DNA from: a virus
Lineage: Duplodnaviria > Heunggongvirae > Uroviricota > Caudoviricetes
DNA length: 11,240 nt
Direction: 5' to 3' (one strand)
Virus record (IMG/VR): IMGVR_UViG_2537561823_000007
Span: 1-11,240 of that record
In this document: positions 4,415 through 6,323 of the stretch, in pieces
Position numbering within the stretch: the first letter of the stretch is position 1
Layout: every line of letters starts with the position of its first letter
Position numbers and translations under genes: made by a program
Notes under the pieces: generated by a model
The model's input: the letters and a program-made list of their open reading frames with translations, nothing else
What the model was told of the DNA's origin: nothing
Database searches by the model: none

Positions 4415-4461
4415 TTGGTTGACAAAATTATGAATATGCACCAATATCTTGGTTGACAAAA
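4415..4461 (+). promoter_or_regulatory. Cassette promoter/operator region with tandem 13-bp direct repeat
   Basis: TTGGTTGACAAAA occurs at 4415..4427 and 4449..4461, each containing a consensus -35 hexamer TTGACA. Intervening AATATGCACCAATAT is AT-rich. The -10 element is not confidently placed. Confidence 0.5.
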
Positions 4462-4496
4462 GTCGTTTTTTGCACGGATTAGGCGGAGAAGTGTCT

Positions 4497-5090
4497 ATGC
4501 AGAACCATCCATTCCCTTGGGAGTTCTTTCCTGAGTTAACAGAGGAGCGTTTAACCATTATAGCTGAGGAGTTGCTCAGGATACAGGATATTACTCATGA
4601 GTTATTGTCATCGCCCTATGATGATAATTACACTCGTGGTGGTTGTACATTTGGGCGTCAGCGGCAGGCGTTGCTACAAATGTGCGTACGAAAGACATAT
4701 GACTGGTTAAGACTACTTAATCCTGGCATGGATCTTACGTTTTCAATTGGGAATGTCCCTATTCGTTTCTTTACTGATGACGCAGATAACCCCAAGAAAC
4801 GCGGTTTTTTCAAAAGAAATGATGCTGATCGACTCTTTGAGTCAGAGGAGACTACTCCAACTATGCATCGCTTTGTGGTTGAAAAGCCTGAATTTGAAGG
4901 CGAGGGTGGTAGAGTCATTTTTAATGGCTATAACGTGTTTGGTGAGATCGTGTCAACTTGGACATATGGTGCGGACCGTGTTGTTATGCTGAACTCTGTC
5001 GATGATGTACCTCCAGCACCGGTACCTATCGAACTAGAACCTATCAGTGCGTCTAAGACTGAGAAGGAAAAGAAACAAAATAGCAAATAG
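4497..5090 (+). CDS. Hypothetical protein (197 aa), first gene of the two-gene cassette; candidate toxin/effector partner
   Basis: ATG at 4497 with GGAGAA ribosome-binding site 7 nt upstream; the track's 4449 start is a TTG inside the promoter repeats. No motif I recognise. Stop lies 10 bp before the next gene. Confidence 0.7.
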   Translation: MQNHPFPWEFFPELTEERLTIIAEELLRIQDITHELLSSPYDDNYTRGGCTFGRQRQALLQMCVRKTYDWLRLLNPGMDLTFSIGNVPIRFFTDDADNPKKRGFFKRNDADRLFESEETTPTMHRFVVEKPEFEGEGGRVIFNGYNVFGEIVSTWTYGADRVVMLNSVDDVPPAPVPIELEPISASKTEKEKKQNSK

Positions 5091-5100
5091 TGGGTGAAAT

Positions 5101-6222
5101 GTGTTTAACGGTACTAATTTAAGACTTGCTCGTCTGTATCACGAGCTATCTCTGGAGCAGGTTGCTGAGAAGGTTGAAAAAACACGCCAGTATGTACAGC
5201 GACTGGAGTCTGGTTCAGCTACTCCATCCCCAGAGCTTATAAATAAATTAGCCGAGGTTTTGCGCGTGAAGCCCGCCTTTTTCGAAGGGCAGGAACATTC
5301 TCCTGTTAATGAAGAGATTGTACATTTTCGTAAACGCGCCTCGACAAGGATGTCAACGAAGCTATCAACACTCGCTAAGGCTGAGTTTTATCGTCGTTTT
5401 ATTGATGTATTTGAAGATAACCTTAATTTGTCACCTGTTCGATTTCCTGAATTTCGTGTCCATACACAAGAAGATATCGAGCGAGCGGCAGAAAAATGTC
5501 GTATTGAGTGGGGCTTAGGCTTTGGCCCAATTGAAAATATGACTCGCCTTGCCGAGAAACTTGGGGCGTTTGTTACTTCATTTGACTCCGTTTCGGATGA
5601 AGTAGATGCACTGTCTGTTCCTCTACGAAGGCCTTTTATTGTTCGAAATACAGCTAAAAATTCACCTTGTAGGCAACGCTTTGATATTGCTCATGAGGTT
5701 GCCCATTTGATTCTTCATGAAGGAATTTCTACTGGGGATAGATTAACTGAATCCCAGGCAAACCGTTTTGCCTCTGCTCTGTTGCTTCCCAGAACGTCGA
5801 TGGCGAAATATTTTCCAAGACCTGTGGGGGGGAGGATAAATTGGCAGGGACTAAGCCAATTTAAGTTGACATGGAAAGTAAGTAAGGCTGCCATTGTTTA
5901 CAGGGCTCATCAATTAGGACTTTTGACTGATGAGCAGTACAGAACTGCATTTATGGGGTTGAAACGGAAAGGGGAAGCTATTGATGAAAAAGAAGATTAT
6001 CTAATCCCTCATGAGCGTCCTGAGTTATTCCGTCGGGCTTTATCGTTTTTATTTGAAGAGTTAGGATACGACCCACAGCGTATAGCTGATGAAATGGATA
6101 TAGAAGTGGACATTTTTTATGAGTTAGCAGGAGATGATCTTCCTGCGGTTCATGAACTGCCAGGAAGTGGTGATGTTGTTTCACTACAATCTTACCGAAC
6201 TCTTAGAGGCAAAATTCACTAG
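5101..6222 (+). CDS. Fusion of N-terminal XRE-family HTH domain to ImmA/IrrE-type (COG2856) zinc metallopeptidase domain (373 aa)
   Basis: GTG start at 5101. HTH segment LSLEQVAEKVEKTRQYVQRLESG. Peptidase motif IAHEVAHLILH (HExxH) followed by ESQANRFASALLLP, the hallmark downstream motif of the ImmA/IrrE family. C-terminal helical extension of about 130 aa. Confidence 0.85.
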   Translation: MFNGTNLRLARLYHELSLEQVAEKVEKTRQYVQRLESGSATPSPELINKLAEVLRVKPAFFEGQEHSPVNEEIVHFRKRASTRMSTKLSTLAKAEFYRRFIDVFEDNLNLSPVRFPEFRVHTQEDIERAAEKCRIEWGLGFGPIENMTRLAEKLGAFVTSFDSVSDEVDALSVPLRRPFIVRNTAKNSPCRQRFDIAHEVAHLILHEGISTGDRLTESQANRFASALLLPRTSMAKYFPRPVGGRINWQGLSQFKLTWKVSKAAIVYRAHQLGLLTDEQYRTAFMGLKRKGEAIDEKEDYLIPHERPELFRRALSFLFEELGYDPQRIADEMDIEVDIFYELAGDDLPAVHELPGSGDVVSLQSYRTLRGKIH

Positions 6223-6226
6223 GCAT

Positions 6227-6248
6227 AACCCGCTTCGGCGGGTTTTTT
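6227..6248 (+). terminator. Rho-independent terminator after the cassette (right copy of the 23-bp repeat)
   Basis: Same AACCCGC-TTCG-GCGGGTT hairpin plus TTTTTT, starting 5 bp after the stop codon. Confidence 0.8.
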
Positions 6249-6323
6249 GTTTTACGTATTCTGGTTTACAATCTACAGGCCAGCCTGAACAACTGGCACC
6301 TGCTGCGCCAGCAGAGAAAACCG

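What the first reader, a model, noticed from the sequence alone, without database searches (positions are those of the whole stretch)
4415..6250. Two-gene moron: unknown 197-aa protein plus HTH-ImmA/IrrE metallopeptidase fusion (candidate toxin-antitoxin or anti-phage defence system)
Between hokD and the rem-like gene sits a self-contained unit with its own promoter region, two co-oriented genes 10 bp apart and its own terminator. The second gene fuses an XRE-type HTH to a COG2856 (ImmA/IrrE) HExxH zinc peptidase (IAHEVAHLILH, then ESQANRFASALLLP). In the literature this fusion is the predicted antitoxin/sensor half of two-gene modules with diverse unrelated toxins (Xre-COG2856 pairs; the RosmerTA defence architecture). 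The 197-aa partner has no motif I recognise, so it may be a new toxin/effector family. The cassette sits beside relBE and hokD, consistent with a toxin-antitoxin/defence island. Assignment to a named system is inference; I could not run homology searches.
Basis: partly seen in the sequence, partly recalled or inferred. Interest (0 to 1): 0.8.

Follow-up and report, generated by a model that had tools for sequence, protein, structure and literature searches.

The report
Known RosmerTA toxin–antitoxin prophage moron
This is a real two-gene toxin–antitoxin cassette inserted in an E. coli prophage, but it is an already catalogued RosmerTA (RmrT/RmrA) system, and near-identical copies were shown in 2020–21 to make the ClpP protease essential, so it is not a new toxin family.

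Summary
Window 4417–6251 is an 1835-bp, low-GC cassette with a promoter, a 197-aa gene, a 10-bp gap, a 373-aa HTH plus M78 (HExxH) peptidase gene and a terminator. It lies between hokD and the rem-like gene.

The RosmerTA guess is right. The "new toxin family" guess is wrong.
- PADLOC models match both proteins end to end: RmrT at E 5.5e-93 and RmrA at E 8e-201.
- The antitoxin differs by one residue (A343V) from WP_000481765.1, which is E101_02644 in Rousset et al. That E. coli E101 prophage module makes clpP essential.
- The suppressor residue reported there, T46, lies in a near-invariant DDNYTR motif of the toxin.
- The family also includes the validated Vibrio Vmi480/Vmi470 pair.

New here:
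- The cassette is in 23 of 5426 complete E. coli genomes, and 3348 have the empty junction.
- The same terminator hairpin flanks it on both sides.
- 39 of 41 toxin loci from other species keep RmrA directly downstream.
- 34 of 40 loci share a dual 22-bp operator/promoter.
- The peptidase catalytic residues are invariant.

The toxin is soluble, has no confident fold match, and its target is unknown. No report was found that tests phage defence for this toxin family.

The parts
4391..4416 (+). Left copy of the 26-bp repeat carrying the hokD intrinsic terminator hairpin (stem-loop 4392-4409 plus T-run). It marks the left joint of the moron.
   Evidence: Direct repeat D1. Terminator scan. Junction alignment with the empty site of SE11.
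4419..4447 (+). Predicted sigma-70 promoter of the cassette: -35 TTGACA at 4419-4424, a 17-nt spacer, and -10 CAATAT at 4442-4447.
   Evidence: Read from the sequence. The same layout, TTGACA-N17-(C/G)A(A/T)(C/T)AT, recurs upstream of homologous toxin genes in other genera. It falls below the threshold of the generic scan.
4419..4440 (+). Operator-like unit 1, TTGACAAAA-N9-TGCA (the conserved G at 4418 precedes it), overlapping the -35 box and spacer. It is the presumed binding site of the RmrA HTH domain.
   Evidence: Two such units spaced 31-34 bp apart (33-34 bp in 32 loci) occur in 34 of 40 loci. The background rate is 0.011 per 240 nt. The 13-nt exact repeat TTGGTTGACAAAA was found.
4453..4474 (+). 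Operator-like unit 2, TTGACAAAA-N9-TTGCA (the conserved G at 4452 precedes it), just downstream of the -10 box over the likely transcription start. No -10 element follows it.
4497..5090 (+). rmrT, the toxin gene (197 aa, identical to WP_001179381.1). The protein is soluble. It has the near-invariant motifs D42-D-N-Y-T46-R, R90-F-F-x-D94-D95 and R125-F-x-V-E129. The C-terminal ~35 residues are predicted disordered.
   Evidence: PADLOC RmrT PDLC03929, E 5.5e-93, residues 1-197 of 198 model positions. PHROG 5786. Identity to strain 504239. Alignment A1. AF2 model with pLDDT 81.8. No TM segment.
5101..6222 (+). rmrA, the antitoxin gene (373 aa, GTG start, identical to WP_000481764.1). It contains an XRE HTH (residues 7-61, nt 5119-5283), an M78 Zn-peptidase (residues 151-269, nt 5551-5907; HExxH at nt 5692-5706) and a conserved C-terminal extension.
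   Evidence: Pfam. PADLOC RmrA PDLC03943, E 8e-201. NCBIfam spr1629-family repressor/antitoxin, E 5e-51, below its cut-off. One residue (A343V) differs from WP_000481765.1. Catalytic residues are invariant in 39 sequences.
6226..6251 (+). Right copy of the 26-bp repeat with the same terminator hairpin (6227-6244 plus T-run). It terminates the cassette and marks the right joint.

Best explanation
The cassette is a RosmerTA-type toxin-antitoxin module (rmrT-rmrA) carried as a moron in the nin region of a lambdoid E. coli prophage. It is an allele of the E101_02645/E101_02644 module of Rousset et al. and belongs to the Vmi480/Vmi470 family.

Shown here or in the literature:
- RmrT-family proteins kill when made alone, and the downstream HTH-peptidase protein rescues the cell, even when both are driven by a foreign promoter.
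- The E. coli module makes ClpP essential. A T46S change in the toxin relieves this.

Inferred here:
- RmrA dimers bind two conserved 22-bp operators that overlap the promoter and the transcription start, and so autorepress the operon.
- RmrA neutralises RmrT at the protein level, and its Zn-peptidase activity is needed, because H198, E199, H202 and E217 are invariant.
- My preferred model (about 40%): RmrA cleaves or hands over RmrT, and ClpXP removes it. Loss of either RmrA or ClpXP then frees the toxin.
- The alternative (about 30%): RmrA sequesters RmrT while ClpXP clears the free excess.
- RmrT is a soluble protein with a cluster of invariant acidic residues. It is more likely an enzyme than a membrane pore.
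- Its target is unknown.

Biological role, by analogy only: abortive-infection defence of the lysogen against other phages, and/or stabilisation of the prophage.
For: Classification:
- Full-length, very strong matches to the RmrT and RmrA models.
- HTH_3 and Peptidase_M78 domains in gene 2.
- Whole-length similarity of RmrA to the spr1629 repressor/antitoxin family.

Link to the published E. coli module:
- The antitoxin is one residue away from WP_000481765.1.
- Rousset et al. (10.1101/2020.05.25.114553) report that E101_02645 (WP_001179380.1) and E101_02644 (WP_000481765.1) make clpP essential, also after transfer to K-12. A T46S suppressor relieves this. They report 33%/42% identity to Vmi480/Vmi470.
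- T46 sits in a near-invariant motif.

Toxin-antitoxin behaviour in relatives:
- Luo et al. (PMC4671572): vmi480 alone is lethal from PBAD. Co-expression with vmi470 rescues. vmi470 cannot be deleted alone.
- Millman et al. (10.1101/2022.05.11.491447): RosmerTA protects against phages, and a delta-rmrA construct could not be transformed.
- Maziero et al. (PMC12795458): in the pneumococcal Rosmer pair RipAB, the antitoxin acts in trans and needs ClpX.
- Pectobacteriaceae Tn-seq: rmrA is essential, and clpX is essential only in RosmerTA-carrying strains.

Found here:
- The gene pair is conserved in 39 of 41 loci.
- The dual operator is conserved in 34 of 40 loci.
- The catalytic residues are invariant.
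- The cassette has moron anatomy and is rare.
Against: - I found no report that tests anti-phage activity for this toxin family. The RosmerTA system verified by Millman (E. coli OLC-716) has a 239-aa toxin with no detectable similarity to this one (BLASTP; hhalign E 0.33).
- I did not see the sequence of WP_001179380.1 itself. Its near-identity to the window's toxin is inferred from the shared antitoxin accession, the neighbouring accession numbers, the presence of T46 and the 90% cluster.
- Operator binding, peptidase dependence and the ClpXP hand-over are inferences.
- One strain carries RmrA split by a frameshift beside an intact toxin gene. The C-terminal third of RmrA may therefore not be strictly required, or that assembly contains a homopolymer error.
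Confidence: 0.85

Rival explanations
1. It is only an addiction or stabilisation module for the prophage, like its neighbours relBE and hokD, and has no anti-phage role.
For: - It sits next to hokD and relBE.
- The published data for this toxin family concern toxicity and ClpP dependence only.
- I found no report that tests phage defence for this toxin family.
- The pneumococcal Rosmer pair has a non-defence role, in competence signalling.
Against: - RosmerTA systems with other toxins protect against phages (Millman; Gordonia phage Kita RmrTA).
- Prophage morons at this position are typically lysogen-benefit genes.
- The cassette is absent from the at least 3348 genomes whose hokD-rem junction matches the empty-site construct, so it is not part of a conserved maintenance apparatus.
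Confidence: 0.1
2. It is a conventional ImmR/ImmA-type (or CapH/CapP-type) repressor-antirepressor switch that controls induction of the prophage or expression of a neighbouring gene. Gene 1 would then be a regulated cargo or regulator rather than a toxin.
For: - RmrA contains both modules of such switches. It matches the capP (E 2.8e-17) and capH (E 4.9e-10) models and has an ImmA/IrrE domain.
- Conserved operators lie upstream.
Against: - The HTH and the protease are fused in one protein.
- The prophage has its own dicA-type repressor region at 2718-3343.
- The cassette is an optional insertion far from the integrase and immunity genes.
- Homologues of gene 1 are lethal alone and are rescued post-transcriptionally.
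- Gene 1 has no DNA-binding or structural-protein signature.
Confidence: 0.02
3. The cassette is a decaying, non-functional remnant.
For: One strain has a frameshifted rmrA. Truncated toxin fragments exist in the 90% cluster.
Against: - Both ORFs in the window are full length. They are identical to those of several ETEC genomes.
- All conserved motifs are intact.
- The promoter, operators and terminator are intact.
- The near-identical E101 allele is active.
Confidence: 0.02

Closest known systems
E101_02645/E101_02644 prophage TA module of E. coli E101 (Rousset et al., Nat Microbiol 2021; preprint 10.1101/2020.05.25.114553)
   Same: - Same species and also prophage-borne.
- The antitoxin accession WP_000481765.1 differs from the window's RmrA only at A343V.
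- The toxin accessions are neighbours (WP_001179380 and WP_001179381), and T46 is present.
- The window's exact toxin is paired with that exact antitoxin in two complete genomes.
   Different: One to three amino-acid allelic differences are expected. The E101 toxin sequence itself was not available to me. The flanking prophage backbone differs: relBE and a dicA-type region lie on the left of the window, whereas strains 504239 and TW10598 have other left flanks.
Vmi480/Vmi470 of Vibrio mimicus MGIVmi1 (Luo et al. 2015, PMC4671572)
   Same: - Same gene order, with the toxin first.
- Similar sizes: 198 and 362 aa against 197 and 373 aa.
- A short gap between the genes: 5 bp against 10 bp.
- An HTH plus Zn-peptidase antitoxin.
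- Rousset et al. report 33%/42% identity to the E. coli pair.
- Toxicity and rescue were demonstrated.
   Different: It is a distant member of the family and lies on a mobilisable genomic island rather than a prophage. My pattern-based genome scan did not retrieve it.
RosmerTA of E. coli OLC-716 (Millman et al. 2022), the experimentally verified defence system that named the family
   Same: The RmrA antitoxins are homologous. The two-gene architecture is the same. Both are detected by the RosmerTA models of PADLOC and DefenseFinder.
   Different: The toxin is 239 aa and shows no detectable relationship to the window's RmrT (BLASTP E 1.1; profile-profile E 0.33). Its phage protection therefore cannot simply be transferred to this toxin family.
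RipA/RipB (Spr1630/Spr1629) of Streptococcus pneumoniae (Piotrowski 2009, as cited; Maziero et al. 2025, PMC12795458)
   Same: It is a Rosmer-type pair. Antitoxin function depends on ClpX, which parallels the ClpP dependence in E. coli E101. RmrA matches the NCBIfam spr1629 family over its whole length (E 5e-51).
   Different: - The match scores 174 bits against a cut-off of 335, so RmrA is not an equivalog.
- The RipA toxin targets the DnaN clamp.
- The window's toxin has no canonical clamp-binding motif.
- Its relationship to RipA could not be tested because no RipA sequence was at hand.
RmrTA of Gordonia phage Kita (Ernits et al. 2023, PMC10440598)
   Same: A phage-borne RosmerTA with an ImmA-type antitoxin. 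It gives a narrow anti-phage defence.
   Different: Its toxin is membrane-localised and depolarises the membrane. The window's toxin has no hydrophobic segment (maximum Kyte-Doolittle 19-residue mean 0.82).
ImmR/ImmA (ICEBs1), IrrE/DdrO and CapH/CapP regulatory pairs
   Same: The same two domains are used, an XRE HTH and an M78 metallopeptidase. The operators are autoregulatory.
   Different: In those systems the two domains are separate proteins, and the protease cleaves the repressor to switch on an element or a defence operon. Here the domains are fused, and the protein acts as the antitoxin of a lethal partner.

Membership tests
RosmerTA (RmrT/RmrA) | The antitoxin has an N-terminal XRE-type HTH fused to an ImmA/IrrE (Peptidase_M78, HExxH) domain. 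| tested here: met
   Pfam HTH_3 at residues 7-61 and Peptidase_M78 at 151-269. H198, E199, H202 and E217 are invariant in 39 homologues.
RosmerTA (RmrT/RmrA) | Both proteins match the curated RmrA and RmrT profile HMMs used by defence-system finders. | tested here: met
   PADLOC RmrT PDLC03929, E 5.5e-93, residues 1-197 of 198 positions. RmrA PDLC03943, E 8.2e-201, residues 1-368 of 370 positions.
RosmerTA (RmrT/RmrA) | The two genes are adjacent, co-oriented and conserved as a unit. | tested here: met
   The gap is 10 bp in the window. In 39 of 41 loci from other species a full-length RmrA homologue lies directly downstream of the toxin homologue.
RosmerTA (RmrT/RmrA) | The toxin is lethal alone and is neutralised by RmrA. 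| not testable with these tools
   Published for Vmi480/Vmi470. Shown indirectly for the near-identical E101 allele through the clpP knock-down phenotype and the T46S suppressor.
RosmerTA (RmrT/RmrA) | The system protects against phage infection. | not testable with these tools
   Shown only for systems with unrelated toxins: OLC-716 and phage Kita. I found no report for this toxin family.
Vmi480/E101_02645 toxin family | A ~197-200-aa soluble protein with the conserved DDNYTR, RFFTDD and RFVVE motifs. | tested here: met
   Alignment A1 of 43 sequences, with 18 invariant columns. 418 representative clusters at E <= 1e-3. The window's protein is the representative of its 90% cluster.
Classical type II toxin-antitoxin | The antitoxin is labile and degraded by Lon or Clp, so loss of the protease is protective or neutral. 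| not testable with these tools
   The literature reports the opposite for this module: depleting ClpP activates the toxin. It works like a TA pair but does not follow the classical protease logic.
ImmR/ImmA-type repressor-antirepressor switch | The repressor and the protease are separate genes placed at the regulatory or integration end of a mobile element, and the protease cleaves the element's repressor. | tested here: not met
   - The domains are fused in one ORF.
- The cassette is an optional insertion in the nin region.
- The prophage has its own repressor region at 2718-3343.
NCBIfam NF052239 (spr1629 family repressor/antitoxin, equivalog) | The score reaches the curated cut-off of 335 bits. 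| tested here: not met
   174 bits, E 4.8e-51, covering residues 1-343. It is a relative, not an equivalog.
PD-(D/E)xK (restriction-endonuclease-like) nucleases, considered for the toxin | A significant fold match and the D...(D/E)xK catalytic signature on strands 2 and 3. | tested here: inconclusive
   - D79 precedes strand 2, but strand 3 reads PIRFFTDD, with no (D/E)xK.
- There are no Pfam or PDB sequence matches.

The most novel reading that the evidence does not exclude
The Vmi480/E101_02645-type RmrT is a new metal-dependent enzyme, possibly a divergent restriction-endonuclease-like nuclease or phosphoesterase. Its invariant acidic residues (D42, D94, D95, E129) and the near-invariant D79, together with T46, would form the active site. 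RmrA plus ClpXP would form a two-step proteolytic antitoxin. The module would then act as a guard that fires when an infecting phage blocks or saturates ClpXP or the RmrA peptidase.
Probability: 0.12. Interest if true: 0.6.

Novelty: already known. Interest (0 to 1): 0.22.

Why it matters
As a discovery it matters little. The system is already in PADLOC and DefenseFinder, and a near-identical allele has been studied.

It still marks open questions in a widespread family:
- what this soluble RmrT does to the cell;
- why neutralisation needs both a Zn-peptidase antitoxin and ClpXP, the reverse of classical TA logic;
- whether this toxin class defends against phages at all.

- the dual operator conserved across Gamma- and Betaproteobacteria;
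- the invariant catalytic residues of RmrA;
- the shared terminator hairpin that serves as a joint for swapping morons at the hokD–rem site.

The carriers include several named ETEC strains (for example TW11681, TW10598 and UMNF18). This may interest people who type prophage-borne defence content in that pathotype.

Tried and rejected
- **Homology to the verified OLC-716 RmrT.** BLASTP found nothing. A profile against the single sequence gave E 0.067. A profile against a 27-sequence profile gave E 0.33. The same register came up each time, but the result is not significant, so I rejected it.
- **Fold assignment for the toxin.**
  - The AF2 model is good (pLDDT 81.8).
  - Foldseek gave E >= 0.07 on the PDB and E >= 0.04 on BFVD.
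  - The AFDB library was not available.
  - I assign no fold.
- **Sequence searches for the toxin.** The profile found nothing in the PDB. Scanning all 43 members against Pfam at E <= 10 gave only scattered noise.
- **Clamp-binding motif.** By analogy with RipA I looked for QLxLF-type motifs and found none. The conserved loop motif D111-x-L113-F/W is not canonical.
- **Membrane toxin like phage Kita RmrT.** There is no hydrophobic segment, so I rejected this.
- **Deposited phage genomes.** Only the hokD flank matches at the DNA level. There is no real phage hit at the protein level. The family does occur on 24 plasmids.
- **Source of the whole window.** No complete E. coli genome covers at least 80% of it. 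Positions 4154-11240 are 100% identical to several ETEC chromosomes, and the left part is a different mosaic.
- **Millman's supplementary tables.** I searched them for the carrier strains and found nothing useful.
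Full report
**Context.** The window is part of a lambdoid (Qin/Rac-like) E. coli prophage. From left to right it carries:
- DicF RNA at 1507-1558 on the minus strand;
- a dicA-type repressor at 2718-3125 on the minus strand;
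- relB at 3570-3809, relE at 3809-4096 and hokD at 4168-4323;
- the two genes of the finding;
- a 90-aa rem-like ORF at 6324-6596, a DUF968 gene, rusA and Q;
- four tRNA genes at 8913-9222, lysis genes and the end of an IS66-family transposase.

No complete E. coli genome holds the whole window. Positions 4154-11240 are 100% identical to several ETEC chromosomes (504239, TW11681, 67-1, WS1933D), while the left part is a different mosaic.

- Gene 1 is 4497-5090 and encodes 197 aa, with GGAG at 4485-4488.
- Gene 2 is 5101-6222 and encodes 373 aa from a GTG start. Its N-terminus, MFNG..., matches that of other RmrA proteins.
- The gap between the genes is 10 bp.
- Gene 2 carries HTH_3 at residues 7-61 and Peptidase_M78 at 151-269. 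Gene 1 has no Pfam or NCBIfam match.
- A hairpin with a T-run follows gene 2 at 6227-6244.

**The unit is a discrete insertion.**
- The same 26-bp sequence, containing the same hairpin, lies at 4391-4416 and 6226-6251, 1835 bp apart.
- A constructed empty site, with the hokD terminator joined directly to the rem-like gene, matches over at least 80% of its length in 3348 of 5426 complete E. coli genomes; the match was a single contiguous piece in 13 of the 15 records listed. The cassette is in only 23.
- The junction alignment shows the SE11 empty site running straight through the single hairpin.
- GC content is 42-45% in the cassette and 52-54% beside it.

**What it is.**
- PADLOC's RmrT model PDLC03929 matches gene 1 over residues 1-197 of 198 model positions (E 5.5e-93).
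- RmrA model PDLC03943 matches gene 2 over residues 1-368 of 370 positions (E 8.2e-201). Thirteen further RmrA models and capP/capH score lower.
- PHROGs has both families: 5786 (unknown function) and 2439 (transcriptional regulator).
- RefSeq calls the proteins WP_001179381.1 ("hypothetical protein") and WP_000481764.1 ("helix-turn-helix domain-containing protein").

**Link to published work on E. coli E101.** Rousset et al. (10.1101/2020.05.25.114553) described a prophage module in E. coli E101.
- The toxin is E101_02645 (WP_001179380.1, no predicted domain) and the downstream partner is E101_02644 (WP_000481765.1).
- The module makes clpP essential. This property transfers to K-12 and is abolished by a T46S change in the toxin.
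- They report 33%/42% identity to Vmi480/Vmi470.

**Other published relatives.**
- Luo et al. (PMC4671572) showed that vmi480 (198 aa) is lethal from PBAD. Co-expressed vmi470 (HTH plus Zn-peptidase, 362 aa) rescues it, and vmi470 cannot be deleted alone.
- Millman et al. (10.1101/2022.05.11.491447) named the architecture RosmerTA and cited Luo and Rousset as precedents. They verified defence for one system, from E. coli OLC-716.

The suggestion of a new toxin family is not.

**The verified RosmerTA toxin is a different protein.** The OLC-716 RmrT (239 aa) shows no similarity to the window's toxin by BLASTP. It shows none by profile-profile comparison against a 27-sequence alignment of its family either (E 0.33). 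Phage defence therefore has not been shown for this toxin class. That is the main gap in the defence interpretation.

**Family-level evidence gathered here.**
- The toxin family has 80 clusters at 90% identity in the first search.
- It has 418 representatives at 50% identity with E <= 1e-3, and nearly all are stand-alone proteins of about 200 aa.
- A scan of species-representative genomes gave 41 loci in Gamma- and Betaproteobacteria.
- In 39 of those loci a full-length RmrA homologue (41-77% identical) lies directly downstream on the same strand. The two exceptions are toxin fragments.
- In every one of these loci the antitoxin is more conserved than the toxin.
- In 39 RmrA sequences, H198, E199, H202, H206 and E217 are invariant. 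So is an H75-F76-R77 motif in the linker between the HTH and the peptidase. The peptidase chemistry is therefore under selection.
- The family also occurs on 24 plasmids. It is in no deposited phage genome.

**A conserved regulatory region.**
- Upstream of the toxin gene, 34 of 40 loci carry two copies of a 22-bp unit, TTGACAaa-N9-tTGCA, usually preceded by a conserved G.
- The spacing is 34 bp in 23 loci, 33 bp in 9 and 31 bp in 2.
- The last unit starts 25-51 nt before the toxin match.
- The same pattern occurs 0.011 times per 240 nt elsewhere in these loci.
- The outer TTGACA and TGCA(A/C) blocks are conserved while the inner bases vary. The two blocks form an imperfect dyad (TTGACA against TTGCA).
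- In the window the units are 4419-4440 and 4453-4474.
- Unit 1 doubles as the promoter, with -35 TTGACA and, 17 nt on, -10 CAATAT at 4442-4447.
- Unit 2 covers the likely transcription start and is followed by the ribosome-binding site, not by a -10 box.
- I read these as two operators for the RmrA HTH, giving autorepression. This is inference from phylogenetic footprinting and has not been shown.

**The toxin itself.**
- The AF2 model is confident (mean pLDDT 81.8, pTM 0.74). It has two long helices (16-36 and 44-65), six strands and a disordered tail from about residue 160.
- No hydrophobic segment is present, so it is not a membrane toxin like phage Kita RmrT.
- These scores are below significance. 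Mg-dependent IMPase/CysQ phosphatases score about the same, and no canonical D...(D/E)xK signature lies on the right strands.
- The profile matches nothing in the PDB or Pfam.
- Four invariant acidic residues (D42, D94, D95, E129), the near-invariant D79, and a suppressor as conservative as T46S suggest an enzyme active site or a tight interface. This is a lead, not a finding.
- No canonical clamp-binding motif is present. A relationship to the pneumococcal DnaN-targeting RipA could not be tested.

**How it most likely works.**
- Rescue by the antitoxin from a foreign promoter (Luo) and in trans (RipB) shows that neutralisation is post-transcriptional. Repression alone cannot explain it.
- The module needs ClpP in E. 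coli. It needs ClpX in S. pneumoniae. In Pectobacteriaceae, clpX is essential only in RosmerTA carriers. My scan found this toxin family in Pectobacterium (L006, L010).
- This is the reverse of classical type II logic, where the protease destroys the antitoxin.
- Preferred model (about 40%): RmrA's peptidase cleaves RmrT or presents it, and ClpXP removes it.
- Alternative (about 30%): RmrA sequesters RmrT while ClpXP clears the excess.
- The trigger during infection is unknown.

**Verdict.** The feature is real, correctly delimited and correctly guessed to be RosmerTA-like. It is already known, both as a catalogued defence-system type and as a studied E. coli allele. The remaining interest lies in the toxin's unknown activity, the ClpXP dependence and the untested defence role.

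Noticed in passing
window 4391-4416 and 6226-6251; L004 (E. coli TUM1881) 470-1305: The same terminator hairpin, ACCCGCTTCGGCGGG, flanks the RosmerTA cassette on both sides. In TUM1881 and MIN10 it also flanks a different insertion of about 666 bp at the same hokD-rem joint. That insertion carries a 393-bp ORF, WP_000737636.1, annotated as a hypothetical protein. The hairpin looks like a shared joint for exchanging morons.
   Followed up: partly
window 5826-5832 (poly-G7 inside rmrA); L048 (E. coli O6:H16 2011EL-1370-2): A 1-bp deletion in the G7 run splits RmrA into fragments of 245 aa and 118 aa (WP_249540602.1 and WP_249540601.1), next to an intact toxin gene. The fragments are recorded on 3-4 contigs. 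Three readings are possible: a homopolymer sequencing error, slippage-prone switching, or evidence that the C-terminal third of RmrA is dispensable or works in trans.
   Followed up: partly
window 4419-4474 and loci L005-L044, upstream of the toxin genes: A dual 22-bp unit, TTGACAaa-N9-tTGCA, spaced 31-34 bp apart (33-34 bp in 32 loci), is conserved in 34 of 40 loci from Enterobacterales to Burkholderiales and Xanthomonadales. It is probably the RmrA operator pair, with the promoter embedded in it. I found no description of it in the papers I read.
   Followed up: yes
RmrA residues 75-77 (window 5323-5331): An invariant H-F-R motif lies in the linker between the HTH and the peptidase domain in all 39 RmrA homologues. 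It could be a self-cleavage or regulatory site. Its function is unknown.
   Followed up: no
window 1-4153 against 4154-11240: The window is a mosaic. The right 7 kb is 100% identical to ETEC prophages whose left flank is different: they have no relBE and a different repressor. The breakpoint lies just upstream of hokD.
   Followed up: partly
window 1507-1558 (-) and 8913-9222 (+): DicF antisense RNA (76.7 bits) lies in the dicB-type region. A cluster of four tRNA genes (Met/Ile2-type CAT, Lys, Thr, Gly) lies downstream of Q. Rfam at its gathering threshold reports three of the four, missing tRNA-Lys at 8990-9066.
   Followed up: no
[not shown]
   Followed up: no
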